DNA of 64,000 nt, from assembly GCA_963713975.1 (NCBI GenBank), contig OY970218.1, positions 3,552,001 to 3,616,000 of the forward strand, in the 5' to 3' direction. Made by a program: the position numbers and the translations under genes. Below are positions 10,622 to 26,372 of the stretch, one piece after another (positions within the stretch are counted from its first letter, which is position 1; each line of letters begins with the position of its first letter). Below the pieces are notes generated by a model. That model was not told the origin of the DNA. It made no database searches and saw only the letters and a program-made list of their open reading frames with translations. Origin of the DNA: an uncultured Chloroflexia bacterium (GTDB lineage: Bacteria > Chloroflexota > Limnocylindria > Limnocylindrales > CSP1-4).

Positions 10622-10836
10622 CCACTTAACCGCGCTTGCAGCGGCGGGTCTTGGCACGACCGGGTCGCCCGGCCCGCCCGTCGATGGTTGCGAAAGGAGG
10701 AGCCACCGGAGGAGGGATAGCCCGACACGGCCCACCTGCCCGCGCCGCGCCAACAGTTCGCCGCAGGGCCGCAGACCGGGCCACCGTCGATCGAGCCCCG
10801 GGGACCGGGGCCAATCCACTAGAGGGAGTTCGAGGC

Positions 10837-11580
10837 ATGGTTTGGGATACCAACATTTTCCTCGCCGAAGTGTTCGGGACGGGACTCCTCGTCCTGCTCG
10901 GTGACGGCGTGGTCGCAGGCGTCCTGCTCGCGAAGTCCAAGTCCAACAACGCTGGCTGGATCGTCATCACAGCGGCATGGGCGTTCGCCGTGTTCGTCGG
11001 CGTCGTCGTCGCCGGCCCGATCAGCGGCGCGCACCTGAACCCGGCGGTCACGATCGGCCTCGCCGTCCAGGGCGCCACCCCGTGGGACCAGGTCCCCGTG
11101 TACCTGCTGGGCGAGTTCGTCGGGGCCTTCATCGGCGCGACGCTCGTCACGATCCACTATTGGGATCACTACAAGCAGACCGAGGACCAGGGCCTCAAGC
11201 TCGCCACGTACTGCACCGCTCCGAACATCCGCAACTACCCGCTCAACTTCGTCTCAGAGGTCATCGGCACCTTCGTGCTGGTGTTCGTGATCTTCACGTT
11301 CGGCACCAACGGCAGCTCGGCCGGCCTCGCATCGCTGGGGGCCCTGCCCGTCGCGATCCTCGTGTTCTCGATCGGCATGTCGCTCGGCGGCACGACCGGG
11401 TACGCGATCAACCCGGCCCGTGACCTCGGGCCCCGCATCATCCACGCGATCCTGCCGGTCCCGGGCAAGGGTGGCTCGGACTGGGAGTACTCCTGGGTTC
11501 CGGTCGTCGGCCCGGTTGTCGGTGGAATCCTGGCGGCGTTGGTCTACAACGGCGTCTGGGTCAACGTGATGGGGATGTAG
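10837..11580 (+). CDS. glpF: Glycerol uptake facilitator (MIP/aquaglyceroporin)
   Basis: SGAHLNPAVT and GYAINPARDLGPR (NPARD marks the glyceroporin type); multiple TM helices. Confidence 0.93.
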   Translation: MVWDTNIFLAEVFGTGLLVLLGDGVVAGVLLAKSKSNNAGWIVITAAWAFAVFVGVVVAGPISGAHLNPAVTIGLAVQGATPWDQVPVYLLGEFVGAFIGATLVTIHYWDHYKQTEDQGLKLATYCTAPNIRNYPLNFVSEVIGTFVLVFVIFTFGTNGSSAGLASLGALPVAILVFSIGMSLGGTTGYAINPARDLGPRIIHAILPVPGKGGSDWEYSWVPVVGPVVGGILAALVYNGVWVNVMGM

Positions 11581-11667: not shown

Positions 11668-12666
11668 ATGAAGAAGCTCATCAACGCACCCGAGAACGTC
11701 GTCGACGAGGCCCTCGCGGGGATGCTCGCCGCCCACCCGGGCTACATCCGGGTCGAGGAGCCGAACATCGTCGTCCGCAAGGACGCCCCGCGCGCCGGCA
11801 AGGTCGGCGTGATCTCGGGTGGTGGCTCGGGCCACGAGCCGATGCACGGCGGCTTCGTCGGCATGGGCATGCTCGACGCGGCCTGCCCGGGTGCCGTGTT
11901 CACGTCGCCCGTCCCGGACCAGATGCTCGCGGCCACCAAGGCCGTGGACGGTGGCGCGGGCGTGCTCCACATCGTCAAGAACTACACCGGCGACATCATG
12001 AACTTCGAGATGGCGGCCGAGATGGCACGCGCCGAAGGGCTCGAGGTCACGGCGGTCGTCATCGCGGACGACGTCGCGGTCAAGGATTCGCTGTACACGG
12101 CCGGCCGGCGCGGCGTCGGCGGCACGGTGCTCGCGGAGAAGATCGTCGGCGCGGCCGCCGAGGCGGGTGCCGACCTGGCCACCGTCACGGCGCTCTGCCA
12201 GAAGGTCCAGGACAACGTCCGCTCCATGGGCATGGCCCTCACGAGCTGCACGGTGCCCATGGCCGGCAAGCCGACATTCGAGATCGCGGACGACGAGATG
12301 GAGATCGGCGTCGGCATCCATGGTGAGCCGGGCCGGTCCCGCGAGAAGCTCGCCACGGCCGACGAGATCACCGAGATGCTCGCCACGCCGATCCTCGACG
12401 ACCTGCCCTTCGAGAGCGGGGACAACGTCCTCGCGTTCGTGAACGGCCTCGGCGGCACCCCGCTCGTCGAGCTCTATGTCGTCTACAACAAGCTTGCCCA
12501 GATGTGCGCCGCACGAGGCGTGACGATCACCCGCAACCTCATCGGCAGCTACATCACGTCGCTCGACATGGCCGGCTGCTCCATCACCCTGCTCAAGCTC
12601 GACGACGAGCTGACGAAGTACTGGGACGCCCCGGTCAACACGCCTGCGCTCCGGTGGGGCGTCTGA
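11668..12666 (+). CDS. dhaK: Dihydroxyacetone kinase substrate-binding subunit
   Basis: [42 protein letters not shown]. Confidence 0.95.
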
Positions 12667-12700
12667 CCCGGCGACCCGATCTGCGAGCGGGAGAACCACG

Positions 12701-13348
12701 ATGAGCACCGCGCCACACATCAGCTACGACGACGTCGTGGCATGGGTCAGTCTGCTGGCCGAGCGGTTCCACGCCGAGAAGGAGTACCTCACGGCGCTGG
12801 ACTCCGCGATCGGGGATGCCGACCACGGCATCAACATGGATCGCGGCCTCGGGGCCGTGATGGTCAAGCTGCCGGCGCTGCCAACCGGCGATGTCGGCGC
12901 CTTCCTCAAGGGCGTGGGGATGACGCTCGTCTCCACCGTCGGCGGCGCGAGCGGTCCGCTCTACGGCACCTTCTTCCTCCAGCTCGGTGGCGCGACCGCC
13001 GGCAGGACGGAGATCGAGCTCGGTGACTTCGCCACGGGGCTGGAGGCCGGCGTCGCCGGGATCCAGCGCCTGGGCAAGGCCGAGCCGGGCGACAAGACCA
13101 TGCTCGACGCACTCCTGCCGGCACGCGACGCGCTGCGCGCGGGCGTTGACCGGGGCGACAGCCCGGCCGACGCTCTTGGCGCGGCCGTCGCGGCGGCCGA
13201 GCAGGGCATGGTCGCCACCATCCCGCTCGTCGCCCGCAAGGGTCGGGCGAGCTACCTCGGGGAGCGCAGCGCGGGTCACCAGGACCCGGGTGCGACGTCC
13301 TCCCATCTCCTCCTCAAGGCTGCCGCCGATTCCTGGTTCCAAGCCTAG
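12701..13348 (+). CDS. dhaL: Dihydroxyacetone kinase ADP-binding subunit
   Basis: [54 protein letters not shown]; directly follows dhaK. Confidence 0.93.
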
Positions 13349-13379: not shown

Positions 13380-14876
13380 ATGACCAAGTATGTCGGGGCC
13401 CTCGACCAGGGCACCACGAGCACCCGCTTCATGATCTTCGACCACGCGGGCGGCGTGGTCGCCATCGACCAGAAGGAGCACGAGCAGATCTTCCCCAAGC
13501 CCGGCTGGGTAGAGCACGACGCGATCGAGATCTGGACCCGCTGCCGGGAAGTCATCAAGGGCGCCATGGCCAAGGCCGGCATCACCGCCGCCGACCTCGC
13601 CGCCGTGGGCATCACCAACCAGCGCGAGACCGCGCTGGTCTGGGACAGGAAGACCGGCATGCCGGTCTTCAACGCGATCGTCTGGCAGGACACTCGAACC
13701 GACGTCCTCGTGAACGAGTTCGCCAAGGAGGGCGGGCAGGACCGCTTCCGCGCGAAGGTCGGCCTGCCGCTGGCCACGTACTTCTCGGGGCCCAAGGTCC
13801 GCTGGATCCTGGACAACGTCCCCGGCGCGCGCGCAAAGGCGGAGGCCGGCGACCTGGTGTTCGGCAACATGGACACCTGGTGCATCTGGAACCTCACGGG
13901 CGGCGTCAACGGCGGCGTCCATGTGACGGACGTCACCAACGCCAGCCGCACCATGCTCATGGACCTCGAGACCCTGTCCTGGGACGATGAGATCCTCGGC
14001 ATCATGGGCATCCCGAAGTCCATGCTCCCGGAGATCAAGGCATCGTCCGAGGTCTACGGCACCTGTGTCGGCGACCTCGCCGGCGTGCCGGTTGCGGGCG
14101 ACCTCGGCGACCAGCAGGCGGCCCTGTTCGGCCAGACGTGCTTCTCGCCCGGCGAGGCGAAGAACACCTACGGCACCGGCTGCTTCATGCTCATGAACAC
14201 GGGCGAGAAGGCTGTCCCGTCCAAGAGCGGCCTGCTCACCACGATGAGCTACAAGATCGGCGACCAGCCGGCGGTGTACGCCCTCGAGGGGTCCATCGCG
14301 ATCACCGGCGCGCTCGTGCAGTGGCTGCGCGACAACCTCGGCATGATCGCCAAGTCCGAGGACGTGGAGGCGCTCGCGGCCACGGTCGATGACAACGGCG
14401 GCGTCTACTTCGTCCCCGCGTTCTCCGGCCTGTTCGCCCCGTACTGGAAGAGCGACGCTCGCGGTGTCATCGCGGGCCTCACCCGTTACGTGAACAAGGG
14501 TCACATCGCGCGTGCCGTCCTCGAGGCGACGGCGTGGCAGACCCGCGAAGTGCTCGACGCCATGAACACCGACTCCGGTGTTCCGCTGACGGCCCTCAAG
14601 GTCGACGGTGGCATGGTGTTCAACAACATGCTCATGCAGTTCCAGGCCGATGTCCTGGGCGTCCCGGTCATCCGGCCGGTCGTCGCCGAGACCACGGCCC
14701 TGGGCGCGGCCTATGCCGCCGGCCTCGCGGTCGGCTACTGGGCCGAGATCGAGGACCTGCGCGAGAACTGGGCGCGTGACGCCGAGTGGACCCCGGAGAT
14801 GGCTGCCGAGATCCGCGAGAAGGACTACGCCCAGTGGAAGAAGGCCGTCACGCGGACCTTCAACTGGGTCGACTAG
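13380..14876 (+). CDS. glpK: Glycerol kinase
   Basis: [52 protein letters not shown]. Confidence 0.97.
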
Positions 14877-14900
14877 CCTCCGTTCGCGTCTGAACGGACC

Positions 14901-14933: not shown

Positions 14934-14953
14934 TCACCTGACAGGGAGGGATC

Positions 14954-15358
14954 ATGCAACCAGGCGTCGCCTGCGTCGGGCTCGTCGTGGTCTCACACTC
15001 GAGCCGGATCGCCGAGGGAACGGCCGAGCTGGCCGGACAGATGGCCGGACCCGACGTCCGCATCCGGCCGGCCGGAGGGATGGAGGACGGCTCCATCGGC
15101 ACGGATGCCGCCCGCATCGCCATGGCCATCGGCGAGGCCGATGCCGGCGCGGGGGTCGTGGTCGTGGCGGACCTCGGCAGCGCCGTGCTCGCCACCCGCA
15201 CGGCACTGGAGCTGCTGGGTGACCCGGGGAACGTGCGCCTCAGCCGCGGCCCGATCGTCGAGGGCGCGGTCATGGCCGCCGTCCAGTCGAGCACGGGTTC
15301 TGACCTGGAGCAGGTCCTCGAGGCGGCCGAGGGTGCCGCGTCCCTGCCCAAGGGTTAG
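14954..15358 (+). CDS. dhaM: DhaM PTS EIIA-like phosphotransfer subunit
   Basis: VGLVVVSHS..IAEG, AGGMEDGSIGT, DLGSA, PIVEGA; GGAGG upstream. Confidence 0.88.
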   Translation: MQPGVACVGLVVVSHSSRIAEGTAELAGQMAGPDVRIRPAGGMEDGSIGTDAARIAMAIGEADAGAGVVVVADLGSAVLATRTALELLGDPGNVRLSRGPIVEGAVMAAVQSSTGSDLEQVLEAAEGAASLPKG

Positions 15359-15446
15359 AGTGGGGGCCGGGCGTCCGCCCGTGGCGGGCCCGCGAACGAG
15401 TCAGCTTGGGCGCGTCGGCCTGCGCCCACACAGCGAGGTGAACCAC

Positions 15447-17129
15447 ATGACGGTGCCGCACGCCGTCGACGTCCTCGTCATCGGAGGAGGCGCGACGGGT
15501 GCCGGGGTCCTCCGCGACCTGGCGCGGAGGGGCCTGCGGGCCCTGCTCGTGGAGCGCAGCGACTTCGGGACCGGGACGACGGGCCGCTACCACGGCCTGC
15601 TGCACTCCGGCGGCCGTTACGTGGGCAAGGACAAGGTCGCCGCCCGTGAGTGCATCGTCGAGAACCGCGTTCTGCGCCGGATCGCCCCCGCGAGCATCGA
15701 GGATACGGGCGGCTACTTCGTGGCCACGCCCGACGATCCCGACGACTACGTGGAGGCATTCGCGGAGAACTGCCGCCTCTCCGGTGTCGACTGCGAGGAG
15801 GTCAAGGTCGCGGACCTGCTTGCCCGCGAGCCGGCGCTCAACCCGAGGATCCGGCGGGCATTCCGCGTGCCGGACGGCTCCGTGGAACCGTGGCAGCTGA
15901 TCGAGGCGACCGTCACCGACGCCCGCCGCCACGGCAGCGAGGCCCTCGCCTACCAGCGCGTGATCGGGATGGATCTCAGCGGCGGCCGGATCGCGGCCGT
16001 GACCTTGCGCGACGAGCGGACGGGCACTGTGTCGCAGGTCTGGACCCACTTCGTGATCTCGGCGGCCGGCGCCTGGGCGGGACAGATCGCCGCCCTGGCG
16101 AGGGTCAACGTCGAGATGACCCCCGGCAAGGGCACGATGCTCATCTTCAATCACCGGATGACCGATGCCGTGGTCAATCGCTGCCATCGCTCAGCGGACG
16201 GCGACATCATGGTCCCCGTCCACACGGTGGCCATCCTGGGCACCACCGACATCAAGGTTCCCGATCCCGACGACTACGAGATCACCCGGGAGGAGGTTCG
16301 GCGTCTCGTCGGCGAGGGCTCCAAGATGTTCCCGGATCTCCCGCGGATGCGCATCCTTCGCGCGTATGCGGGCGTGCGTCCCCTCTACCAACCGCCGGCG
16401 GCAACGGTGGCCGAAGCGGGCAATCGGGCGATCACCCGGGCCCACTCCATCCTCGACCATGCCGACCAGGGCGTGGAGAACTTCGTCTCGATCGTTGGGG
16501 GCAAGCTGACCACGCACCGCCTGATGGCCGAGGAGACCGTGGACGCGGTCGCGGCCAGGATGGGCGTCTCGGCGCCGTGCACGACGGCGGACGAGGTCCT
16601 GCCGGACCAGGACGGCGGTCACACCTACTGGCTGGGCCACCGCCTCGCAGACCACGAGCAGGAGGGCGGCGGTGACGCCAACCTCGTATGCGAGTGCGAG
16701 ATCGTCACCCGGAAGATGGTAGAAGGCTACCTGGACACGCACTGGCCCTGCTCCATCGACGACGTCCGGCGTGGCACCCGCGTCGGCATGGGACCGTGCC
16801 AGGGGGCGTTCTGCACCTTCCGGGTCGCGGGCCTCATGGCGGAGCGACTCGATGCGCACACGGCGGCCACAGGGCAGCCGGCGCCGGGTGCCCACGTCGT
16901 CGACGGGCACCACCCTGGGAGCAGCGCGCTGCACGCGGCCATCGCGGACCGGGCGCTGACGGCATTCCTCCGGGAACGGTTCAAGGGCACCCGGCCCATC
17001 GCCGACGGCCGGCAGCTCCAGGAGCTGATGATGACCAACGGGATCTATCTCGGCGTCCTGGGCCTGGAATCGATGGTGTCCGCGCCGGTCCCGGCGCTCG
17101 ACGAGGAGAGCCTCGATGCCGCACGCTGA
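15447..17129 (+). CDS. glpA: Anaerobic glycerol-3-phosphate dehydrogenase subunit A
   Basis: GGGATG, GTTGRYHGLLHSGGRY, GGKLTTHRLMAE, C-terminal BFD-like CECE..TRVGMGPCQGAFC. Confidence 0.92.
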   Translation: MTVPHAVDVLVIGGGATGAGVLRDLARRGLRALLVERSDFGTGTTGRYHGLLHSGGRYVGKDKVAARECIVENRVLRRIAPASIEDTGGYFVATPDDPDDYVEAFAENCRLSGVDCEEVKVADLLAREPALNPRIRRAFRVPDGSVEPWQLIEATVTDARRHGSEALAYQRVIGMDLSGGRIAAVTLRDERTGTVSQVWTHFVISAAGAWAGQIAALARVNVEMTPGKGTMLIFNHRMTDAVVNRCHRSADGDIMVPVHTVAILGTTDIKVPDPDDYEITREEVRRLVGEGSKMFPDLPRMRILRAYAGVRPLYQPPAATVAEAGNRAITRAHSILDHADQGVENFVSIVGGKLTTHRLMAEETVDAVAARMGVSAPCTTADEVLPDQDGGHTYWLGHRLADHEQEGGGDANLVCECEIVTRKMVEGYLDTHWPCSIDDVRRGTRVGMGPCQGAFCTFRVAGLMAERLDAHTAATGQPAPGAHVVDGHHPGSSALHAAIADRALTAFLRERFKGTRPIADGRQLQELMMTNGIYLGVLGLESMVSAPVPALDEESLDAAR

Positions 17130-18450
17130 CGTCGTCGTCATCGGTGCCGGGCTCGCCGGGATGGTCGCCGCGACACGGCTCGCCGAGGCGGGCGCAGTGG
17201 TGACGCTGGTCGCCAAGGGCCACGCGAGCACCCACTGGGGCTCGGGCGGGCTGGACGTCGCGGCGCCGACCGGTGCAGCCACCACGGCCGACGGGGTCGC
17301 GCGCCTCGCGAGGCTCGAGCACCCGTACGCGTTCCTGGCTCCGGACGTCGCGCCGTCCGTCGGCTGGCTCCTCGATCGGCTGGAGGCAGGGGGGCTCCCC
17401 TACTCAGGAACGCTCGACACGCCCATCCGGCGCGTGCCCACGGCCATCGGCGGCACGCGGCGCGTCGCGATCGTGCCCGAGGCCCAGGCCGCGGCGCAGC
17501 GGGCATGGCAGGGGGACGAGGTCCTGGTGGTCGCCGGCCCAACCGGGTTCAAGGACTTCTGGCCGGCCGCGATCGCGGGCAGCCTGGGTCGTGAGGCCGT
17601 GTGGCACGGCGCGGACCGGCCGGACCGGCTGGTGGGCGTGGCCGTGGACCTGCCCGGTCTCTCGGAGCGGAACAACCTGAACGCGCTCCTGCTGGCGGGC
17701 CGATTCGATGACCCGTCCCGGTGGTCGGACGACATCGGCCGGATCGCCAAGGCAGTCGAGCGGGCCGCCGGGGGTCGGCCGGGGCGCGTCGCCCTGCCCG
17801 CGATCTTCGGCCTGAGCCGGCACACGGAGATCTGGGCCGAGCTCCGGGCGCGGCTGTCCCTCGAGCCGTTCGAGGTTCCGCTGGTGCCCCCCAGCATCCC
17901 GGGCATCCGCCTGTGGCGGCTGCTCCGCGAGCACCTCCGAGCGGCCGGCGGTCGCATCCAGGTGGGTGAGGCCGTGGCGAGGATCCACGTCGAGGCAGGT
18001 CGAGTGACCGCGGTGGAGATGGAGGCCGCCACCCGGACCCACCTGATCCGCACCGAGGCCATCGTCCTGGCAACGGGCGGCATCGCCGGGGGCGGGCTCG
18101 TTGCCCACGGCGACGGCCGCCTGGCCGAACCCCTGCTCGACCTGCGCGTCGACGCCCCCGAGCACGACCTGTGGCTGGTCAAGGACGCCCTGGACCCGGC
18201 GGGCCACCCGATCGAGGCGGCGGGCGTGCCGACGGATCCCGGCCTCCGGCCGCTCGGCCCCGCACACCAGGTCTCGCACGCCAACGTGCTCGTCGCCGGT
18301 GCGCTCCTCGCCCGACAGCGCGCCCTGCGGGAGCGCTGCGGGGACGGCGTGGCCGTCGCATCGGGCTGGCGCGCCGCCAACCAGTTGGCCGCCGGCGCCA
18401 CCCGCCATCCTGTCGGCCGCGAGCCGGTGACCCCGAGGTTCGAGCAGTGA
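17116..18450 (+). CDS. glpB: Anaerobic glycerol-3-phosphate dehydrogenase subunit B
   Basis: GAGLAG, PPSIPGIRL, VLATGGIAGGGL, CGDGVAVASG; lies between glpA and glpC. Confidence 0.88.
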   Translation: MPHADVVVIGAGLAGMVAATRLAEAGAVVTLVAKGHASTHWGSGGLDVAAPTGAATTADGVARLARLEHPYAFLAPDVAPSVGWLLDRLEAGGLPYSGTLDTPIRRVPTAIGGTRRVAIVPEAQAAAQRAWQGDEVLVVAGPTGFKDFWPAAIAGSLGREAVWHGADRPDRLVGVAVDLPGLSERNNLNALLLAGRFDDPSRWSDDIGRIAKAVERAAGGRPGRVALPAIFGLSRHTEIWAELRARLSLEPFEVPLVPPSIPGIRLWRLLREHLRAAGGRIQVGEAVARIHVEAGRVTAVEMEAATRTHLIRTEAIVLATGGIAGGGLVAHGDGRLAEPLLDLRVDAPEHDLWLVKDALDPAGHPIEAAGVPTDPGLRPLGPAHQVSHANVLVAGALLARQRALRERCGDGVAVASGWRAANQLAAGATRHPVGREPVTPRFEQ

Positions 18451-19784
18451 GCATCGCCGACGTCGTCCGGGAGGCGGCCGCAGACCGGCCCGTGTCGTCC
18501 ACCGCCGACGAGTGCCTCAAGTGCAACGTCTGCAACACGGTCTGCCCGGTGATGCGGGTCACGGACCTGTTCGCCGGCCCCAAGTACGAGGGCCCGCAGG
18601 CGCAGCGCCTACGCATGGCCGCCGGGCAGGTGATCCAGGGGCCGCACTCGAGCAATCCGCGCTCCCCCGACCACTCGGTGGACTACTGCTCCGGCTGCGG
18701 CTGGTGCACGACCGCGTGTCCGGCGGGCGTGAAGATCGCCGAGATGAACAACCAGGCCCGCGGGCGGCTCCGCGAGGGCAAGCGGCCCAGGCTTCGTGAC
18801 TGGACCCTCGGCCAGACCGACCTCACGGGGTCGATGGGCGTGCTCTTCTCGCCGCTCGCCAACTTCGCCTTCCACAACCGCGTCGTGCGGGCGGTGGTCG
18901 AGGTCGGCTTCGGCGTCCACCGCAAGGCGCCGTTCCCCCGGTTCGCGAAACGCACCTTCGCCTCGACCTGGAAGAAGCGCCAGGCCAGGAGCGGCGACGG
19001 GGGAAGGCCGAAGGGCCGGCCGGGTCCGGACGCGGCCATCGTCTATTTCCATGGCTGCTCGGCCAACTACTACGAGCCGCACGTGGCCGAGGCCGCGATC
19101 TGGGTGCTCAAGCGGAACGGCTTCGAGACGATCGTCCCCGAGCAGGTCTGCTGCGGACTGCCGCTGATCAGCAACGGGCTCTACGACGACGCTCGCGAGC
19201 GTGCGTGCACGAACACGAAGGTGCTCGCCGAGTACGCCCGGGCCGGCTACCGGATCATCGGCACCTCCACCTCCTGCACCCACACGCTCAAGGCCGAGTA
19301 CGAGGAGATGCTCGACATGCGCGACGACGATACCCGCGCCGTCGCCCATGCCACCTGGGACATCTGCGAGTTCCTGCTGCACCTGCACGAGGAAGGGCGC
19401 CTCGACACCGGCTTCGGCCGCCTGGACGAGGACCTCGCCTACCACGCCCCGTGCCAGCTCCGGAGCCACGGCATCGGGCTGCCGGCGCTCGATCTGTTCG
19501 CCCTCGTCCCGGGGCTGCGGGCCGTGGACATGGACCACGACTGCTGCGGCATGGCGGGCACGTATGGCCTCAAGCGCGAGAAGTACGACATCGCGGCCAG
19601 GGTCGGCGAGCCGCTCTTCCGTAAGGTCAGGGAATCGGGCGCCAGCGAGGCGGCCTGCGACTCCGAGACCTGCCGCTGGCAGATCGAGACGGCGACCGGG
19701 GTCCGGACCCGTCACCCGGTCGAGATCCTGCGGGACGCCTACCGGTCCGCGGACGAGGCGACGGCACCCGCCACAGCGGGTTGA
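18447..19784 (+). CDS. glpC: Anaerobic glycerol-3-phosphate dehydrogenase subunit C
   Basis: CLKCNVCNTVCP, CSGCGWCTTACP, CCG domains (CCGLP, CCGMAGTYGLK), SETCRWQI. Confidence 0.92.
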   Translation: MSIADVVREAAADRPVSSTADECLKCNVCNTVCPVMRVTDLFAGPKYEGPQAQRLRMAAGQVIQGPHSSNPRSPDHSVDYCSGCGWCTTACPAGVKIAEMNNQARGRLREGKRPRLRDWTLGQTDLTGSMGVLFSPLANFAFHNRVVRAVVEVGFGVHRKAPFPRFAKRTFASTWKKRQARSGDGGRPKGRPGPDAAIVYFHGCSANYYEPHVAEAAIWVLKRNGFETIVPEQVCCGLPLISNGLYDDARERACTNTKVLAEYARAGYRIIGTSTSCTHTLKAEYEEMLDMRDDDTRAVAHATWDICEFLLHLHEEGRLDTGFGRLDEDLAYHAPCQLRSHGIGLPALDLFALVPGLRAVDMDHDCCGMAGTYGLKREKYDIAARVGEPLFRKVRESGASEAACDSETCRWQIETATGVRTRHPVEILRDAYRSADEATAPATAG

Positions 19785-19885
19785 GGGTTCGGACGGCCCA
19801 TCAAGGTCACCTTCCGGGCCCCGAGGACGGTCGGATCGACACTCGACACGAGTGCGGTCGGGGCGCGAACCTTGTCTCGATTGCG

Positions 19886-21073
19886 ATGGAGTCAAGCAGC
19901 GCTCCTCAGGTGGTGATCGTCGGTGGCGGTGGCACAGGCGGTGCTCTCGCCCACGACCTCACGCTCCGTGGACTCAGGGTCGTGCTCGTAGAGCGCCACG
20001 GGCTGACGTCCGGGACCACGGGGCGCCACCATGGACTGTTCCATTCGGGCGCCAGGTACGCGGTCAACGACCCCGAATCCGCCGCCGAGTGCATCCGCGA
20101 GAACCGCATCCTCCGTCGGATCTGTCCCGGCTCGTTCGAGCTCAACGACGGCCTGTTCGTTGCGCTCGACGAAGAGGACTTGGACTTCCGCGAACGGTTC
20201 ATGCCCGCCTGCGAGGCCTCCGGCATCCCCGTCCGCTGGCTGACCGCCGCCGAGGCACTGCGCCTCGAGCCCAACCTCGACCCCGGACTCCTGGGCGCCG
20301 CCCAGGTTCCCGATGGGACCATGGATGCGATGCGCCTGCCGCTGCGCTTCTTTGCGACCGCCCTGGCCAACGGCGCCGCCATCAACCCGTACACCGAGGT
20401 CACGGGCCTGAATGGCTCCTCCGGTTGCGTGACGGGCGTCCGGGTCCTGGACCGGATGACGGGTCGGGCCTATGCCATCGGCGCCGATGTCGTCGTCAAT
20501 GCCGCTGGCCCGTGGGGCGGCCAGGTCGGACGGATGGCCGGTGTCGACGTGCCGGTGCGGCCGTCGCCGGGCGTACTCGTGGCGATGTGCGGCCGCCACA
20601 GCGAGATGGTCGTGAGCCGCCTGCACGCATCGTCAGACGGCGACATCGTGGTGCCCCAGCGGGCACTCTCGATCATCGGGACCAGCTCCTGGCTGGCGGA
20701 GGACCCGGACGAGCTCGACGTACCCGAGGATCACGTCCAGCGGATGCTCACGGAAGGTGCCCGGCTCCTCCCGTCGCTGCGGGGAGCGGAGATGCGGGCC
20801 GCGTGGTCGGCGGCGCGGCCGCTGGTCGGCGATCGCGGCGGGGAGACCGGGCGCGAGCTGAGCCGCACCTTCAAGTGCTTCGACCACGCGGCGGACGACG
20901 GCGTCGAGGGCTTCGTCACGATCTCCGGCGGCAAGGGGACGACCCTGCGCGGCATGGCGGAGCTCACGGCGGACGTCGTCTGCCGCAAGCTGGGGATCGA
21001 AACCCCGTGCCGCACGGCGGAGACGGTCCTGCTGCCCCACACCGCCTTCCATCGCGTCCCGGTGGCGGCCTGA
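19886..21073 (+). CDS. Short GlpA-like FAD-dependent oxidoreductase lacking the C-terminal [2Fe-2S] domain
   Basis: GGGGTG, GTTGRHHGLFHSGARYAVND..ECIRENRIL, SDGDIVVP, GGKGTTLRGMAE; ends soon after CRTAETVL; start codon uncertain (no SD). Confidence 0.85.
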   Translation: MESSSAPQVVIVGGGGTGGALAHDLTLRGLRVVLVERHGLTSGTTGRHHGLFHSGARYAVNDPESAAECIRENRILRRICPGSFELNDGLFVALDEEDLDFRERFMPACEASGIPVRWLTAAEALRLEPNLDPGLLGAAQVPDGTMDAMRLPLRFFATALANGAAINPYTEVTGLNGSSGCVTGVRVLDRMTGRAYAIGADVVVNAAGPWGGQVGRMAGVDVPVRPSPGVLVAMCGRHSEMVVSRLHASSDGDIVVPQRALSIIGTSSWLAEDPDELDVPEDHVQRMLTEGARLLPSLRGAEMRAAWSAARPLVGDRGGETGRELSRTFKCFDHAADDGVEGFVTISGGKGTTLRGMAELTADVVCRKLGIETPCRTAETVLLPHTAFHRVPVAA

Positions 21074-21074
21074 C

Positions 21075-21863
21075 ATGACGACCCTGCTCGATCGGTCGGC
21101 CGAGGCGCCCGAGGCGGCGCCCGTGCCGTCCCGCCCGTTCCGGATCCTGCGCCACCACCGGGGCCGGGAGCCTCGCTGGGACCACTACCGGGCGCCCGTG
21201 ACGTCCGCACGGACGACGGTCCTGGATGCCCTGACCTGGATCCGTGCCCACCTGGATCCGACCCTGGATGTCCGCCACTCGTGCTTCCACGCCTCGTGCG
21301 GGACATGCGGCATGCGCGTCAACGGCCGCGACGTGCTCGCCTGTGTCACGCGGCTGGCCGACCTCGGCCCGGGCGAGGTGACCGTCGAGCCGCTGCTCAA
21401 CCAGCCGATCGTGAGCGACCTGGTCGTGGACATCGAGGCACTCTACGAAGCGTTTGACGGAGTGGGCCTGCCGCTCGTCCGCCGGTCCGAGGCCATGGGC
21501 GGCTCGCGCCCGGCTGATGGCGTGGACCACCTGACCCGATTCGAGGACTGCATCGAGTGCGGGCTGTGCGTGTCGGCCTGCCCGATCGAGGCCAGCGACG
21601 CCGCCTACGTCGGCCCCGGCGTGCTCGCGGCCGCCTGGAGGGTCATCGACGAGCCCCGTGACGCAGATCCGGCGCGAGCCTTCGCGCTCGTCGACGGCGA
21701 CCAGGGCGCGTGGCGCTGCCACCTGGCCTTCGAGTGCAGCGAGGCGTGCCCGTCGGGTGCGCTGCCAGCCGAACAGATCATGCACCTTCGGCGCGGGCTC
21801 CTGCGCCACCGCCTCCGGGCGGTGTTCGGACGCGCGGCCGGAGGTGACGGGAGGGCGTCGTGA
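21075..21863 (+). CDS. SdhB/FrdB-like iron-sulfur subunit
   Basis: SCFHASCGTC..LAC ([2Fe-2S]), CIECGLCVSACP ([4Fe-4S]), WRCHLAFECSEACP ([3Fe-4S]-type), TVLDAL, DLVVD. Confidence 0.88.
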   Translation: MTTLLDRSAEAPEAAPVPSRPFRILRHHRGREPRWDHYRAPVTSARTTVLDALTWIRAHLDPTLDVRHSCFHASCGTCGMRVNGRDVLACVTRLADLGPGEVTVEPLLNQPIVSDLVVDIEALYEAFDGVGLPLVRRSEAMGGSRPADGVDHLTRFEDCIECGLCVSACPIEASDAAYVGPGVLAAAWRVIDEPRDADPARAFALVDGDQGAWRCHLAFECSEACPSGALPAEQIMHLRRGLLRHRLRAVFGRAAGGDGRAS

Positions 21864-22270
21864 TGGACCGCGTCGAAGGGCGACGGGCGGACGCGCCACG
21901 GAGGCGCGGCATCGCCGGCTGGTTCGATCCGCGCCACCGGCATCTCGGCGAATGGGCGTTCGCCCTCAACCGCCTGTCGGGACTGGGCGTGCTGCTCTAC
22001 CTGTACCTGCACCTCGTGATCCTGTCGCTGCTTGCGCGCGGCCCGGATGAGTGGGACGCCTTCGTCGGCATCGCGACGAGCCCGGCGATCCTCGTCTTCG
22101 ATGTGGTGCTGCTTGCCGGGCTGCTCATCCACGGCTTCAACGGCGTCCGCCTCACCCTGCTGGGCTCCGGGCTGGTGGTCGGCCGCCAGAAGGCGCTCTA
22201 TGTGGCGCTGATGGTGATCGCCGGGGTCGTGCTGCTGACCGGTGCCATCCGGATCTTCGAGGTGGCCTGA
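21860..22270 (+). CDS. SdhC-like cytochrome b membrane subunit
   Basis: WAFALNRLSG, YLYLH, IHGFNGVR; three TM helices. Confidence 0.8.
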   Translation: MMDRVEGRRADAPRRRGIAGWFDPRHRHLGEWAFALNRLSGLGVLLYLYLHLVILSLLARGPDEWDAFVGIATSPAILVFDVVLLAGLLIHGFNGVRLTLLGSGLVVGRQKALYVALMVIAGVVLLTGAIRIFEVA

Positions 22271-22271
22271 C

Positions 22272-22655
22272 ATGGCCGTGACGTGGACCCCGGAAGCCGC
22301 CGAGCGCATCCGAGCCGAACGGGACTGGGCATGGGTCATCCAGGCCGCGACGGGGGCCGCGGTGCTGGTCCTGGTCACGGTCCACATGATCGCGAACCAC
22401 TTCATCCTGCCCGATGGGCTGCGGGGCTTCGCGGAGGTCGTGGCCTACCTGTCCAACCCGGTGATCGTCGCTCTTGAGCTCACCTTCCTCGTGACGGTGA
22501 CTTGGCACGCGCTGCTGGGTGTCCGGGCCGTGCTGTTCGACTTCGGGTTCTCGTCGCGGGCCGAGATCCGGATCACGCGCCTGTTGGCCGTCGTCGGCGT
22601 GCTCACGGTCGGGTATGGTCTCTGGCTCACGGCGGTGATCACCGGCCAGGGCTGA
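22272..22655 (+). CDS. SdhD-like hydrophobic membrane anchor
   Basis: WVIQAATG, VHMIANH, WHALLGVRAVLFD; three TM helices. Confidence 0.78.
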   Translation: MAVTWTPEAAERIRAERDWAWVIQAATGAAVLVLVTVHMIANHFILPDGLRGFAEVVAYLSNPVIVALELTFLVTVTWHALLGVRAVLFDFGFSSRAEIRITRLLAVVGVLTVGYGLWLTAVITGQG

Positions 22656-22683
22656 TCGCCGCTCGACCCTCAGGAGGAGCGAC

Positions 22684-23754
22684 GTGCCCGAAGCGCCCGA
22701 AGCGCCAGCACCGCTGCGGGTGGTGGTGATCGGGTCCGGCGCCGTGGGCTCGTTCCTGGGGGGCTCGCTGGCTGCCGCTGGTCACGCCGTGACCCTGCTG
22801 GGCCGGCGGCCGGCCACGGGTGCCGATGCCGGGCTGCTGCTCCTCGAGGGCCCGGACGAGACGCGCCGGGTGCCCGTCCAGCAGACACATGACGCGGCGG
22901 AGGCGGACGTCCCGCAGCTCGCCATCGCTGCCGTCAAGATGTTCGATCTCGAGGAGGCGCTGGCAACGGCGGCCCGCTGGCCGGACGCCGTGATCATGAC
23001 CGTCCAGAACGGCGTGGGCGCCGAGGAGGTCGCGCGGGCGGCCCGGACGTCACCCCTGATCGCCGCTTCCCTCACCACGGCCGTGGAGCCCGTCCCGGGC
23101 GGCGTGCGACGGCTGCGCACCGGGGGCATTGGCGTGGCCGCGGTACCCGGCGACGGCACCGCCGCCGCGGGTGCGACGGCCCGGCGTCTCGCGGAGTCCC
23201 TGGCCGCGGCCGGCCTGCCGGCGCGCGTCTACCCCGATGCCGCCGCGATGAAGTGGTCCAAGCTCCTCGCGAACCTCGTCGGCAACGCGACGAGCGCCAT
23301 CCTGGACATGAGCCCGGGCGAGATCTACGCGGACCGCCGCCTCTACCCCATCGAGCGGCGCCAGCTCCAGGAGGCGGCAGCGGTGATGCGGGCCCTCGGC
23401 CTGGAGACGGTGGCACTGCCCGGGGCGCACGTGCAGCTGCTGCTGAGGGGCCTGGCTCTGCCAGCGGCGATCGGCCGCCCCGTGATCGCCCGGGCGATCG
23501 CCGGCGCCCGGGGCGGCAAGTCCCCATCCCTCCGCCTGCATGTCAGGGGTGGCGGCAGCGGCCCGACCGAGGCGCGCTGGCTCAACGGCGCAGTCGCAAC
23601 CGCGGGCATCCGGACCGGCGTGCCAGCACCCGTCAATGCCTGCCTGGCCGCGCTCGTGGACGAGGTGGCGGCGGACCCTGGACGCGCTGCGTGGTTCGCC
23701 GGCAGGCCGGACCGGCTCGCGGACGCCGTGGCCGCGTGGCCGACACGCCCGTAA
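22684..23754 (+). CDS. Ketopantoate reductase (PanE/ApbA) family protein
   Basis: GSGAVG, AVK, QNGVG, KWSKLLANLVGN, PSL, TEARWLNGAV. Confidence 0.8.
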   Translation: MPEAPEAPAPLRVVVIGSGAVGSFLGGSLAAAGHAVTLLGRRPATGADAGLLLLEGPDETRRVPVQQTHDAAEADVPQLAIAAVKMFDLEEALATAARWPDAVIMTVQNGVGAEEVARAARTSPLIAASLTTAVEPVPGGVRRLRTGGIGVAAVPGDGTAAAGATARRLAESLAAAGLPARVYPDAAAMKWSKLLANLVGNATSAILDMSPGEIYADRRLYPIERRQLQEAAAVMRALGLETVALPGAHVQLLLRGLALPAAIGRPVIARAIAGARGGKSPSLRLHVRGGGSGPTEARWLNGAVATAGIRTGVPAPVNACLAALVDEVAADPGRAAWFAGRPDRLADAVAAWPTRP

Positions 23755-23783
23755 CGAACGCCCCGGGCCTATACTCCGCCTCC

Positions 23784-24413
23784 GTGGAACCCTTCGACCT
23801 CCTGCGCGCCGTCCTCATCGTGGCCGCCGCCTACCTGATCGGTGGCATCCCCTGGGGCGTCATCGTCGCCAAGGTCACGGGGGGGCCGGATCCGCGCAGC
23901 ATGGGCAGCGGCCGGACAGGCGGCGCCAACACGATGCGGGCCCTCGGGCCGCGCCTGGCCCTCGTCTCGGGGCTGCTCGACATGCTCAAAGGCACGGTCG
24001 CGGTGCTCCTGGCGCAGGCGCTCGGTGGCGGCGTGGGCGTCGAGGTCGCGGCGGCTCTGGCGGCGATCGTCGGCCACAGCCGCTCCCCGTTCCTGGGCTT
24101 CGGGGGTGGACGCGGCGTCGCGCCAGCCTTCGGCGGGCTCCTGGCCTTCCAGCCGCTCATCGCCCTGGCCATCATCCCGCTCTTCGCCGGGGTGATCCTG
24201 GTCACCCGCTACTCGTCGCTGGGCTCGCTGGCCGGCTCAGCCGCGGCAGGGATCCTGCTGGTCATCGCGACCGTGACCGTCCCCCTGGACCCGTGGATGT
24301 ACGTCTACGCGGTGGGCGGCACCGGGCTCGTCTGGCTGTTCCACATGGACAACATCCACCGGCTCCTCAACGGCCAGGAGCGCAAGCTCGGGTCCCCGCG
24401 ACCCGAGGAGTGA
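23784..24413 (+). CDS. plsY: Glycerol-3-phosphate acyltransferase PlsY
   Basis: YLIGGIP, GSGRTGGAN, DMLKG, VGH..PFLGFGGGRGVA, YSSLGS, HMDNIHRL..GQE. Confidence 0.9.
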   Translation: MEPFDLLRAVLIVAAAYLIGGIPWGVIVAKVTGGPDPRSMGSGRTGGANTMRALGPRLALVSGLLDMLKGTVAVLLAQALGGGVGVEVAAALAAIVGHSRSPFLGFGGGRGVAPAFGGLLAFQPLIALAIIPLFAGVILVTRYSSLGSLAGSAAAGILLVIATVTVPLDPWMYVYAVGGTGLVWLFHMDNIHRLLNGQERKLGSPRPEE

Positions 24414-24765: not shown

Positions 24766-25950
24766 TCAGGCGTCGGGCAGGGTGGCGGCCATCACCCGCA
24801 GCACGTTCTCGCCCATCACCGCGCGGATCGCGGCGTCCTCCAGGCCCGCGGCCAGCAGCGCGTCCGTGAGCCAGACCACGTTGGCCGCGTCGAAGGGGAC
24901 GGCCACCGCGCCGTCCCAGTCCGAGCCCAGGGCGACGTGCTCCACGCCCACGCGCTCCACGGCGTAGGCGATCGAGCGCGCGATGGCAGCCGCGTCCGGA
25001 CCGCCGCTCGCCGTCTCCCAGAAGCCGATCCCCACCAGGCCGCCGGTCGCGGCGATCCCCTCGAGGTGCTCGTCGGAGAGATTGCGGGCGTTGTCGCAGA
25101 TCCCTCGGACACCGGTGTGCGACGCGACAACCGGCCGGCTGGAGATCGCCAGGGCGTCGTCGATGGTCCGTGCCGAGCTGTGCGCGACGTCGAGGACCAC
25201 GCCCCGGGCCTCCATCCGGTGGATCATCTCGCGCCCGGCGCCCGTGAGGCCGTGCTGCTCCACGCCATGGGCAGAGCCACCGAACGCCGTGTCGAAGAAA
25301 TGGGCGGGCGAGATCATCCGGATCCCCGCATCGGCGACGACATCCACGTTGGCCGGGTCGCCGTCGAGCGCGTGGGCGCCCTCGATCGACAGCATGCCGG
25401 CGGTGATCGCCTCGTTGCCCGCGCGGTCGGCCAGGTAGGCCGCCAGCTCCGCCCGCGTCCCGATGATCCGGAAGGCGCCGTCGGACGCCGCCGCAAACCG
25501 TCGGGCGCTTGCCGCCAGGTGCAGGACACGTGGCATCAGGCGGCGCCACGTCGCCGGCGGCCAACGCTTGGCCAGGGCGAGCCTGATCACGTCGTCCGAG
25601 GTGTCCTCGTTGCGATCGATGTTGAGGCCGCGCGGCGTCTTGACTGCCATCGAGAATACCTGGAGCGCCACCCGGCCCTCGATCATCCGCGGCACGTCCA
25701 CGTGGCCGCGGTCGCTGCGACGCAGCAGGTCACGACCGAACAAGAGGGAATCCGCGTGGAGGTCCGCGACGCGCAGGGTCGCGTGGAGCTTGCGCGCACG
25801 ATCACCGACCGGCCCGGAGGGTTCGGGCCCCACGGGGTTCATCTGCGCCTCGGTACGGGCCACCAGGGCGTCCAGTGCCGGCCGTGCGGCGACCAGGGCA
25901 CCTGCGACCGCCACGCCGGTGGCCAGGGCCGCGACCCGCCGGCCGCTCAT
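24766..25950 (-). CDS. Membrane dipeptidase (peptidase M19) with N-terminal hydrophobic anchor
   Basis: DLHAD, SIEGAH, DVAH, ASHTG, RNLSD, LGSDWDG. Confidence 0.85.
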   Translation of the reverse strand: MSGRRVAALATGVAVAGALVAARPALDALVARTEAQMNPVGPEPSGPVGDRARKLHATLRVADLHADSLLFGRDLLRRSDRGHVDVPRMIEGRVALQVFSMAVKTPRGLNIDRNEDTSDDVIRLALAKRWPPATWRRLMPRVLHLAASARRFAAASDGAFRIIGTRAELAAYLADRAGNEAITAGMLSIEGAHALDGDPANVDVVADAGIRMISPAHFFDTAFGGSAHGVEQHGLTGAGREMIHRMEARGVVLDVAHSSARTIDDALAISSRPVVASHTGVRGICDNARNLSDEHLEGIAATGGLVGIGFWETASGGPDAAAIARSIAYAVERVGVEHVALGSDWDGAVAVPFDAANVVWLTDALLAAGLEDAAIRAVMGENVLRVMAATLPDA

Positions 25951-26372
25951 GCGCCGAAGGCCCGGCCGCGGGTGGGGCGGATCCGCAGCGGCACGTTGTA
26001 GATCGTCGCCATCTCCTCGGCCGACGTGAGGTAGTCGGTGATCCACGCTCCGTACTTGGCGAGGTACGCAGCGTGGTCGGGGACCTGCGGCGTCGCCTGG
26101 TCCACGCGCGCCTCGCCCTCGATGACGACGACGTCGCCACCCTTCCCGTCGTCGTTGAGGTGGAGGGTGACCCGCGGATTGTGGGTGATGTTCAGGTTCC
26201 GCTTGGCGCGCTTGTCCGAGAAGACCAGCGCCTCGCCGTCCTCCCACAGGAACCAGATCGGGAAGGTCTGGGGCTGGCCATCGGGCGTGACGGTCGTCAG
26301 CCAGCCGATCATGTCCGTCCGGAGGCGCGCGAGCGCGTGCGCGTCCGCTTCGGAGCCGGAGTCGAAGACCAT
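25947..26372 (-). CDS. PPOX-class (putatively F420-dependent) oxidoreductase
   Basis: IGWLTTV..DGQPQTFPIWF, KRNLNI..NPRVTLHL, YLAKY; GGAGG upstream. Confidence 0.75.
   Translation of the reverse strand: MVFDSGSEADAHALARLRTDMIGWLTTVTPDGQPQTFPIWFLWEDGEALVFSDKRAKRNLNITHNPRVTLHLNDDGKGGDVVVIEGEARVDQATPQVPDHAAYLAKYGAWITDYLTSAEEMATIYNVPLRIRPTRGRAFGA

What the first reader, a model, noticed from the sequence alone, without database searches (positions are those of the whole stretch)
19886..22655. Candidate hybrid respiratory complex: GlpA-type flavoprotein in place of SdhA on an SdhB/C/D module
Seen: right after a complete glpABC, a second GlpA-like gene keeps the FAD and HGLxHSGARY motifs but stops where GlpA1 continues into its BFD-like [2Fe-2S] domain (CECE..CQGAFC). 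One nt later (TGAcATG) an SdhB-like gene starts with all three Fe-S motifs, then SdhC- and SdhD-like genes follow with tight junctions (GTGA, TGAcATG). There is no SdhA/FrdA in the window. Established: sdhB is normally encoded next to its SdhA/FrdA flavoprotein, and GlpA is a different (DAO/GlpD-like) family that normally works with GlpB/GlpC. Inference: the SdhB [2Fe-2S] cluster replaces the missing BFD domain, giving a polyol(-phosphate):quinone oxidoreductase built on a complex II scaffold. I do not recognise this as a described complex, but I could not search the literature.
Basis: partly seen in the sequence, partly recalled or inferred. Interest (0 to 1): 0.85.

Follow-up and report, generated by a model that had tools for sequence, protein, structure and literature searches.

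The report
Glycerol-phosphate dehydrogenase on complex-II subunits
A soil-type Chloroflexota bacterium carries, beside its ordinary glpABC genes, a second glycerol-3-phosphate dehydrogenase whose tail-less GlpA flavoprotein is wired to succinate-dehydrogenase-type iron-sulfur and two-haem membrane subunits; the design is real and common in bacteria, was predicted from gene order in an archaeon in 2025, and has never been purified.

Summary
Window 19886-22655 (+) encodes four tightly joined genes. They are a 395-aa GlpA-type flavoprotein without the BFD [2Fe-2S] tail, an SdhB-like protein with all 11 cluster cysteines, and two SdhC/D-like anchors with four haem-ligand histidines. They follow a complete glpF-dhaKL-glpK-glpA1BC cluster.

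The genome has one SdhA, inside its own sdhCDAB operon 220 kb away.

- **Conservation:** in 80 related loci, SdhB' follows the short GlpA in 74 of 74 testable cases, and glpK lies directly upstream in 46 of 67.
- **Fusion:** six Actinomycetales genomes fuse GlpA and SdhB' into one ORF.
- **Model:** a complex model scores 0.92 against 0.00 for the best control, with the [2Fe-2S] loop against the FAD region.

The best reading is a membrane G3P:(mena)quinone oxidoreductase (confidence 0.85).

It is not undescribed. Schmerling et al. 2025 (PMC11962113) drew "GlpA-SdhBCD" for Thermofilum pendens from gene order. This scan has also met the design in at least seven other genomes. My searches found nothing in print on the bacterial spread, the fusions or the tandem with glpABC. 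Nothing has been tested at the bench.

The parts
10636..11580 (+). glpF-like glycerol facilitator (MIP family); context gene. The true start may lie later in the ORF.
   Evidence: Pfam PF00230 MIP, E 1.5e-47
11668..13348 (+). dhaK (11668-12666) and dhaL (12701-13348), dihydroxyacetone kinase subunits; context genes
   Evidence: Pfam Dak1 E 1.6e-136 and Dak2 E 5.7e-54
13380..14876 (+). glpK, glycerol kinase
   Evidence: TIGR01311 scores 741 bits against a cut-off of 590. ATG at 13380 with AGGAG upstream.
15447..17129 (+). glpA1, canonical GlpA with a C-terminal BFD [2Fe-2S] domain (560 aa from ATG 15447)
   Evidence: TIGR03377 scores 581 bits against a cut-off of 552.8. Pfam finds DAO plus Fer2_BFD. 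CECE..CQGAFC motif. Start codon.
17116..18450 (+). glpB
   Evidence: TIGR03378 scores 179.9 bits against a cut-off of 174.15
18447..19784 (+). glpC (GTG 18447, overlapping the glpB stop)
   Evidence: NF008369 scores 470 bits against a cut-off of 278. Pfam finds CCG plus Fer4 domains. Junction read.
19886..21073 (+). glpA2: short GlpA-type FAD flavoprotein (395 aa) with no BFD domain. Its conserved C-terminal LLPHTA tail touches SdhB' in the model.
   Evidence: Length is 384-403 aa in 66 of 77 relatives; the 11 longer ORFs are six GlpA-SdhB' fusions and five ORFs of 411-512 aa whose ends were not examined. Interface residues are listed.
21075..21863 (+). sdhB': SdhB-type iron-sulfur subunit (262 aa). 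Cys70/75/78/90 bind [2Fe-2S], Cys159/162/165/169 bind [4Fe-4S], and Cys215/221/225 bind [3Fe-4S]. His216 follows the first [3Fe-4S] Cys.
   Evidence: Pfam Fer2_3 plus Fer4_8; TIGR00384 scores 173.6 bits against a cut-off of 88. All 11 Cys are 99-100% conserved in 75 sequences. 31% identical to the genome's canonical SdhB.
21860..22270 (+). sdhC': three-helix membrane anchor with invariant His51 and His91
   Evidence: Pfam Sdh_cyt. Best PDB match is 6lum_C; His51 and His91 align with His C47 and His C87 of that chain, which are the haem bD and bP ligands (PMC7447783). Both invariant in 70 sequences.
22272..22655 (+). sdhD': second three-helix anchor (127 aa from ATG 22272; the longest ORF starts at GTG 22242). 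Invariant His48, His53 and His89, numbered from 22242.
   Evidence: Pfam Sdh_cyt. His48 and His89 fall in the same columns as the haem ligands of 6lum_C. All three invariant in 61 sequences. Start codon.
22684..23754 (+). PanE/ApbA-family NAD(P) oxidoreductase. It is a downstream neighbour in a subset of loci, and its membership of the unit is uncertain.
   Evidence: TIGR00745 scores 159.8 bits against a cut-off of 141. Present just downstream of sdhD' in 11 of 80 loci, by my reading.

Best explanation
glpA2-sdhB'-sdhC'-sdhD' encodes one membrane-bound respiratory enzyme, a glycerol-3-phosphate:(mena)quinone oxidoreductase.

**Proposed electron path.** The DAO-fold flavoprotein GlpA2 oxidises G3P (made by GlpK) to DHAP on its FAD. 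GlpA2 has no BFD [2Fe-2S] domain of its own, so it docks on a dedicated SdhB paralogue whose [2Fe-2S] loop faces the flavin. Electrons then run [2Fe-2S] to [4Fe-4S] to [3Fe-4S], and into a type-A-like, two-subunit, two-haem SdhC'/SdhD' anchor where quinone is reduced.

**Shown here:** gene content, motifs, conservation, fusions, and the absence of a spare SdhA.

**Modelled:** the GlpA2-SdhB' interface.

**Evolutionary setting.** In the window's lineage a canonical glpABC was inserted between glpK and this older glpK-glpA-sdhB'C'D' unit. The cluster therefore now encodes two different G3P dehydrogenases, and a GlpD-like gene lies elsewhere in the genome.
For: 1. **Domains and motifs**.
2. **Linkage.** Among the 80 best of 268 related loci, SdhB' lies directly downstream of the short GlpA in 74 of 74 loci with enough sequence, SdhC' in 69 of 71, and SdhD' in 64 of 68. 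No locus has an SdhA match.
3. **Substrate context.** glpK is directly upstream in 46 of 67 loci, and upstream behind glpABC in 6 more. The window lies in a glpF-dhaK-dhaL-glpK island.
4. **Natural fusions.** GlpA and SdhB' form a single ORF of 678-709 aa, without stops, in 6 of 80 loci: two Cellulomonas, Actinotalea lenta, Pengzhenrongella phosphoraccumulans and two MAGs. Pfam finds DAO, Fer2_3 and Fer4_8 in one protein in the 3 of 3 checked. SdhB' and SdhC' are fused in 2 loci.
5. **Complex model.** GlpA2 (37-row alignment) with SdhB' (36 rows) gave ipSAE 0.92, 0.92 and 0.90 against 0.00 for the best of 3 controls. The runs share at least 78% of their contacts, and the partner's pLDDT is at least 78. 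The tool's mark was reached by 58 of 80 solved complexes and 2 of 110 mismatched pairs; those counts hold only roughly here, because my own alignments were used. The interface holds SdhB' 65-75, 77 and 90-91 (the [2Fe-2S] Cys loop) against GlpA2 38-47, 145-150, 231-241, 257-263 and 303-307, and the conserved GlpA2 tail 384-390 against SdhB' 120-135. Sequence search found no solved DAO-family/SdhB complex, so a pass from memory of a like complex is unlikely.
6. **No spare SdhA.** The own genome has one PF02910 match, adjacent to its own SdhB. In 5 other genomes every strong SdhA match (E <= 1e-40) has an adjacent SdhB, and SdhB' is the extra copy at the glpA locus.
7. **Haem ligands.** The four invariant His of SdhC'/D' align with the bis-His ligands of both haems of the di-haem M. 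smegmatis Sdh2.
Against: - There are no biochemical data for any member, in this work or in print.
- GlpA2 scores below the GlpA equivalog cut-off (440.7 against 552.8). That is expected for a truncated form, but it means the substrate is not assigned by a curated model.
- The genome already has GlpA1BC and a GlpD-like gene. A third G3P dehydrogenase looks redundant and leaves room for another substrate.
- 15 of 67 loci have no glpK within reach upstream, including all six fusion loci.
- SdhC'/D' were not detected with my query in 2 and 4 loci respectively. Two of those loci instead have an SdhB'-CCG protein, so the membrane module is not universal.
- The complex model is a confidence score, not a measurement. 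I could not obtain coordinates to measure the FAD-to-cluster distance.
- The ~100-nt gap before glpA2 yielded no promoter or terminator call, so the transcription unit is unknown.
Confidence: 0.85

Rival explanations
1. The complex has the same architecture, but GlpA2 oxidises something other than sn-glycerol-3-phosphate, such as another polyol phosphate or a 2-hydroxy acid. The two flavoproteins of the cluster would then have different jobs.
For: The genome already has GlpA1BC and a GlpD-like enzyme. GlpA2 is only 39% identical to GlpA1 and scores below the GlpA equivalog cut-off. Some positions differ between the two proteins, for example the invariant P257-Q258-R259 of the short family where GlpA1 has PVH. 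A PanE-type oxidoreductase follows in 11 of 80 loci.
Against: The best family matches are all G3P dehydrogenases or oxidases, and the best solved relative is a G3P dehydrogenase (3da1). In 46 of 67 loci glpK is the immediate upstream gene and tblastn found no GlpA1, GlpB or GlpC in the fetched flanks. There the short GlpA therefore looks like the locus's own G3P dehydrogenase.
Confidence: 0.08
2. SdhB'C'D' is a second succinate:quinone or fumarate-reductase module that borrows the genome's only SdhA. GlpA2 would be a free-standing or monotopic G3P dehydrogenase that merely sits next to it.
For: SdhB' keeps every cluster ligand and the anchors keep their haem ligands. Some organisms run two complex II isoenzymes; this point is recalled, not tested here.
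Against: GlpA-SdhB' fusion proteins exist in six genomes. Adjacency holds in 74 of 74 loci, and no SdhA is found in any of the 80 loci. Each strong SdhA in six genomes already has its own adjacent SdhB. The complex model is confident, with controls at zero.
Confidence: 0.04
3. glpA2 is a decaying, truncated duplicate of glpA1 and the arrangement has no function.
For: It lies right behind a complete glpABC and lacks the C-terminal third of GlpA.
Against: The short length is conserved across phyla: 384-403 aa in 66 of 77 relatives, the rest being six fusions and five unexamined longer ORFs. More than 100 residues are invariant. The 120 best protein clusters are 363-424 aa long and carry DAO only. 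In the tree the glpABC-containing loci form one derived clade within the short-GlpA family, so glpABC looks like the newcomer.
Confidence: 0.01

Closest known systems
'GlpA-SdhBCD' type G3P dehydrogenase predicted for Thermofilum pendens and relatives (Schmerling et al. 2025, Commun Biol 8:539, PMC11962113, Fig. 9b; passages read)
   Same: A GlpA-cluster flavoprotein is followed by putative succinate dehydrogenase b, c and d subunits, proposed to give membrane anchoring and electron transfer. The gene context is glycerol use. The evidence is gene order, with no biochemistry.
   Different: That description covers Thermofilum-related archaea only, and the paper states that in Bacteria glpA consistently goes with glpB and glpC. 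Here the design is bacterial (Chloroflexota, Actinomycetota and others), sits in tandem with a canonical glpABC, and has fused forms. I could not fetch the T. pendens proteins, so sequence-level kinship was not tested.
Canonical anaerobic G3P dehydrogenase GlpABC (the E. coli type), encoded immediately upstream in this window
   Same: GlpA2 shares the DAO-fold catalytic part with GlpA (39% identity to GlpA1). The presumed substrate is the same, and both presumably hand electrons to an Fe-S partner and then to quinone.
   Different: GlpA2 has no BFD [2Fe-2S] domain and no GlpB or GlpC partners of its own. Its partners are SdhB/C/D paralogues with integral-membrane haem anchors, in place of the CCG-domain protein GlpC.
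Di-haem (type A) succinate:menaquinone oxidoreductase, e.g. M. smegmatis Sdh2 (PDB 6LUM; PMC7447783, abstract and passages read)
   Same: The SdhB has three clusters. There are two small three-helix anchors whose four His align with the bP and bD haem ligands.
   Different: The flavoprotein is not an SdhA/FrdA (FAD_binding_2 plus Succ_DH_flav_C) but a DAO-family enzyme. The substrate is not succinate or fumarate. SdhB' is only 31% identical to the genome's own SdhB.
GlpA-CoxG G3P dehydrogenase of Sulfolobus acidocaldarius (same 2025 paper, characterised experimentally there)
   Same: It has a truncated GlpA-like flavoprotein lacking the Fe-S Cys tail, and depends on a separately encoded partner for membrane association.
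   Different: Its partner is a small CoxG-like protein with no Fe-S chain or haem anchor. Here the partner is a full complex-II-type wire.

Membership tests
GlpA-SdhBCD type G3P dehydrogenase (Schmerling et al. 2025) | GlpA-cluster flavoprotein without the C-terminal Fe-S (BFD) domain | tested here: met
   Pfam finds DAO only. The protein ends 13 aa after the part shared with GlpA1, while GlpA1 carries Fer2_BFD.
GlpA-SdhBCD type G3P dehydrogenase (Schmerling et al. 2025) | Directly followed by homologues of succinate dehydrogenase subunits b, c and d | tested here: met
   Domains; junctions; conserved in 74/74, 69/71 and 64/68 loci.
GlpA-SdhBCD type G3P dehydrogenase (Schmerling et al. 2025) | Sequence kinship with the T. 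pendens proteins (same clade) | not tested
   No tool gave me the Thermofilum sequences. The link rests on shared architecture only.
GlpA-SdhBCD type G3P dehydrogenase (Schmerling et al. 2025) | G3P:quinone oxidoreductase activity of the assembled complex | not testable with these tools
   No bench data exist for any member, as far as searches show.
Canonical GlpA (TIGR03377 equivalog, GlpABC) | Score above the curated equivalog cut-off | tested here: not met
   440.7 bits against a cut-off of 552.8, matching profile positions 1-380 of 530.
Canonical GlpA (TIGR03377 equivalog, GlpABC) | C-terminal BFD-like [2Fe-2S] domain | tested here: not met
   Absent from GlpA2.
Complex II (succinate:quinone oxidoreductase / fumarate reductase) | SdhA/FrdA flavoprotein (FAD_binding_2 plus Succ_DH_flav_C) as the catalytic subunit | tested here: not met
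   None in the locus or in any of the 80 related loci. The genome's single SdhA sits in its own sdhCDAB operon.
Complex II (succinate:quinone oxidoreductase / fumarate reductase) | SdhB with [2Fe-2S], [4Fe-4S] and [3Fe-4S] ligands | tested here: met
   All 11 Cys are 99-100% conserved. TIGR00384 scores 173.6 bits against a cut-off of 88. Best PDB match is 1kf6_B, E 1.7e-54.
Complex II (succinate:quinone oxidoreductase / fumarate reductase) | Membrane anchor with bis-His haem ligands (type A: two subunits, two haems) | tested here: met
   Sequence level only. SdhC' H51/H91 and SdhD' H48/H89 are invariant and align with the 6LUM haem-ligand columns. Haem content was not measured.

The most novel reading that the evidence does not exclude
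The GlpA2-SdhB'C'D' enzyme may be the first respiratory dehydrogenase outside the succinate/fumarate pair to use a di-haem complex-II anchor for transmembrane electron transfer to a distal menaquinone site. G3P oxidation would then be coupled to the membrane potential, in one direction or the other, unlike GlpD or GlpABC. Carrying it in one operon with glpABC would let the cell choose between a coupled and an uncoupled route for the same substrate. The naturally fused GlpA-SdhB' proteins of cultured Cellulomonadaceae would make this directly testable.
Probability: 0.2. Interest if true: 0.7.

Novelty: new member of a known kind. Interest (0 to 1): 0.45.

Why it matters
Complex II is textbook-defined by its SdhA/FrdA head. 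This family shows the SdhB/C/D wire being reused as a general module for a flavoprotein of an unrelated fold.

If confirmed, it adds a fourth architecture of bacterial G3P dehydrogenase beside GlpD, GlpO and GlpABC. That would correct routine annotation, which currently names these genes 'FAD-dependent oxidoreductase' plus 'succinate dehydrogenase iron-sulfur subunit', and so would improve respiratory-chain reconstructions for Chloroflexota and Actinomycetota MAGs.

The fused genes in cultured Cellulomonas, Actinotalea and Pengzhenrongella give a practical route to purification and structure. The value is tempered because the idea is already in print for archaea, and this scan has met the same design repeatedly.

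Tried and rejected
- **Orphan SdhA.** Searched for and not found. The own genome has 1 PF02910 match. In five other genomes the weaker second matches (49-63 bits) have no adjacent SdhB and were not examined further; from recall they may be L-aspartate oxidase.
- **Pseudogene reading of glpA2.** Rejected on conservation.
- **Promoter and terminator scan, 14800-24000.** No + strand site was found, so nothing can be said about transcription units.
- **Apparent long ORFs.** The long 'SdhB' ORFs in L031 and L053 were artefacts of my ORF extension across a stop. L014 looks frameshifted.
- **Thermofilum sequences.** I could not obtain them with the tools at hand, so no joint tree with the archaeal form was made.
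- **G3P-binding residues.** I could not map them. The residue list is in closed supplements, and one search did not bring up the GlpD structure paper.
- **Tree search.** The careful search did not finish in time, so only the quick IQ-TREE result is used.
- **Atlas look-up.** It gave only leads: short DAO clusters in Thermodesulfobacteriota, Thermoplasmatota and Pseudomonadota.
- **Search of this scan's earlier notes by place.** It returned nothing.
Full report
**What is there**

The window is bases 3552001-3616000 of a single-contig 3.62-Mb genome of about 71% G+C. Its closest relatives in public genomes are Chloroflexota MAGs labelled Chloroflexia or Candidatus Limnocylindrales.

On the + strand lies a glycerol island:

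| Gene | Coordinates | Evidence |
|---|---|---|
| Dak2-domain gene | 9755-10525 | |
| MIP/GlpF | 10636-11580 | |
| dhaK | 11668-12666 | |
| dhaL | 12701-13348 | |
| glpK | 13380-14876 | |
| glpA1 (DAO plus BFD) | 15447-17129 | |
| glpB | 17116-18450 | |
| glpC | 18447-19784 | |
| glpA2 (after a ~100-nt gap) | 19886-21073 | |
| sdhB' | 21075-21863 | |
| sdhC' | 21860-22270 | |
| sdhD' | 22272-22655 | |
| PanE/ApbA-type oxidoreductase | 22684-23754 | |

The three junctions inside glpA2-sdhB'-sdhC'-sdhD' are 1-nt gaps or overlaps, which suits co-translation.

GlpA2 keeps the FAD dinucleotide motif and the HHGLFHSGARY stretch. It is 39% identical to GlpA1 over 386 residues and stops 13 residues later, whereas GlpA1 runs on into a Fer2_BFD domain with CECE...CQGAFC.

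SdhB' has the three canonical Cys motifs and is 31% identical to the genome's ordinary SdhB. SdhC' and SdhD' are both Sdh_cyt proteins.

The genome has exactly one Succ_DH_flav_C match, two real Fer2_3 SdhB-type genes and four Sdh_cyt genes. That amounts to one complete sdhC-D-A-B operon about 220 kb upstream plus the SdhA-less set in the window.

**Conservation**

- The 120 best protein clusters for GlpA2 are 68-100% identical and 363-424 aa long, and carry DAO but no BFD.
- A scan of one genome per species found 268 loci encoding relatives. I examined the best 80 by tblastn with the window's proteins and the genome's SdhA and SdhB.
- Where enough downstream sequence exists, SdhB' follows in 74 of 74 loci, SdhC' in 69 of 71 (missed in L033 and L049), and SdhD' in 64 of 68 (missed in L033, L048, L049 and L057).
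- No locus has an SdhA match.
- glpK is the immediate upstream gene in 46 of 67 loci. It sits upstream behind an inserted glpABC in 6, and is not within reach in 15.
- In an even sample of the phylum, the short GlpA (E <= 1e-100) occurs in 21 of 401 genomes and 14 of 217 genera, G000 included, and in 8 of 23 other genomes of the window's own family. The distribution is patchy but wide.
- Titles of the 80 loci name Chloroflexota, Actinomycetota, one Binatia, one Planctomycetaceae and one Proteobacteria MAG.

**Fusions**

In six loci GlpA and SdhB' are a single ORF of 678-709 aa without stops, joined by a 40-80-aa Pro/Ala/Thr-rich linker. The loci are L050, L054 (Cellulomonas sp. SG140), L067, L069 (Cellulomonas sp. 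T2.31MG-18), L074 (Actinotalea lenta) and L083 (Pengzhenrongella phosphoraccumulans). Pfam finds DAO, Fer2_3 and Fer4_8 in each of the three I checked.

In a quick maximum-likelihood tree of 76 rows the six fusions form one clade (SH-aLRT 99), so this is one event.

There are two further variants:
- Two Anaerolineales MAGs fuse SdhB' to SdhC' (L076 and L086).
- Two loci (L033 Solirubrobacteraceae, L049 Binatia) have an SdhB' that continues into a CCG domain, giving a 525-530-aa TfrB-like protein, with no detectable SdhC/D.

A gene fusion between two proteins is classical evidence that they work as one unit.

**Complex model**

With alignments of 37 and 36 natural sequences, the GlpA2-SdhB' pair scored ipSAE 0.92, 0.92 and 0.90. 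The best of three controls scored 0.00. The runs share at least 78% of their contacts, and the partner's pLDDT is at least 78. The tool's mark was reached by 58 of 80 solved complexes and 2 of 110 mismatched pairs, counts that hold only roughly with my own alignments.

The confident interface puts the [2Fe-2S] loop of SdhB' (65-75, 77, 90-91; Cys70/75/78/90) against GlpA2 38-47, which is the conserved TSGTTGRHH stretch following the FAD fold. It also contacts GlpA2 145-150, 231-241, 257-263 and 303-307. The short conserved C-terminal tail of GlpA2 (384-390, LLPHTA) lies on SdhB' 120-135.

Sequence searches of the PDB show no solved pairing of a DAO-family enzyme with an SdhB, so the pass is unlikely to be recall of a known complex. 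The model supports binding but does not show it, and I could not measure a flavin-to-cluster distance.

**The anchor**

The best solved relative of both SdhC' and SdhD' is chain C of 6LUM, the di-haem M. smegmatis Sdh2. That paper gives the axial ligands as His D107-His C87 for haem bP and His D65-His C47 for haem bD (PMC7447783).

SdhC' His51 and His91 align with C47 and C87, and SdhD' His48 and His89 fall in the same columns. All four are invariant in 70 and 61 family members respectively. The anchor therefore looks like a type A, two-haem anchor.

A further His53 in SdhD', and His216 after the first [3Fe-4S] Cys in SdhB', are also conserved at 96-100%. From recall, the latter position belongs to the proximal quinone site in E. 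coli SQR.

**Rivals**

A shared-SdhA reading is made unlikely by the fusions, the strict linkage, and the fact that in six of six genomes every strong SdhA already has its own adjacent SdhB.

A different substrate cannot be excluded. The genome also has GlpA1BC and a GlpD-like gene (289 bits to NF008899, below its cut-off). Even so, glpK adjacency and the family matches point to G3P.

Decay is excluded by conservation.

**History of this locus**

The seven loci that carry glpABC between glpK and the short glpA, the window among them, form one clade (SH-aLRT 99) nested among loci with plain glpK-glpA-sdhB'C'D'. The rooting is uncertain because the outgroup branch is very long. The simplest reading is that the SdhB-wired enzyme is the older resident and that the canonical glpABC was inserted later in this lineage.

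**What is known**

Five full-text searches found only one work that names this design, Schmerling et al., as a bioRxiv 2024 preprint and as Commun Biol 2025 (PMC11962113). I read passages of it.

[quoted passage not shown] It also states that in Bacteria glpA consistently co-occurs with glpB and glpC. It presents no biochemistry for this type.

The earlier notes of this scan list the same design in at least seven other genomes, with the same closest-known reference. I re-derived the points I use.

**Verdict**

This is a real, conserved, probably functional G3P:quinone oxidoreductase on a complex-II chassis, with confidence 0.85. The kind is already predicted in print, so this is a new, bacterial, glpABC-tandem member rather than a new kind.

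The bacterial spread, the GlpA-SdhB' fusions in cultured strains and the di-haem anchor are useful additions and make the enzyme ready for bench testing.

Noticed in passing
window 9755-13348 (+): A dihydroxyacetone branch sits in the same island: an extra Dak2-domain gene, glpF, dhaK and dhaL, directly upstream of glpK. No glycerol dehydrogenase was seen. The PanE/ApbA-type reductase at 22684-23754 is an untested candidate for a missing oxidoreductase step.
   Followed up: partly
L033:7202-8794 and L049:7170-8747: In a Solirubrobacteraceae MAG and a Binatia MAG, the SdhB' behind the short GlpA continues into a CCG (HdrB/GlpC-like) domain, giving a 525-530-aa TfrB-like protein. No SdhC/D genes were detected. 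This is a possible anchor-less or peripherally bound variant.
   Followed up: partly
L076:4629-5762 and L086:7113-8306: SdhB' and SdhC' are fused into one ORF (377 and 397 aa; Fer2_3, Fer4 and Sdh_cyt) in two Anaerolineales MAGs.
   Followed up: yes
L014:7184-8533: SdhB' in this Chloroflexi MAG matches in two tblastn pieces in different frames. The ORF runs on into Arg/Ala-rich nonsense, which suggests a frameshift or an assembly error.
   Followed up: no
G000:C1:2626118-2627275 (L094:1438-3072): A third FAD-type G3P dehydrogenase candidate: a 544-aa GlpD-like protein (NF008899 289 bits, cut-off 360).
   Followed up: partly
G210 (same family as the window), C19:4864-6051 and C11:20613-21770: One related genome has two copies of the short GlpA, one of them with a TGA inside the match.
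   Followed up: no
L050, L054, L067, L069, L074, L083: None of the six GlpA-SdhB' fusion loci has glpK within the 6 kb fetched upstream, unlike most unfused loci. Their gene context was not examined.
   Followed up: no
window 24766-26247 (-): A membrane dipeptidase (Peptidase_M19) gene lies on the opposite strand, downstream of the cluster. The large + strand ORFs overlapping it had no Pfam match.
   Followed up: no
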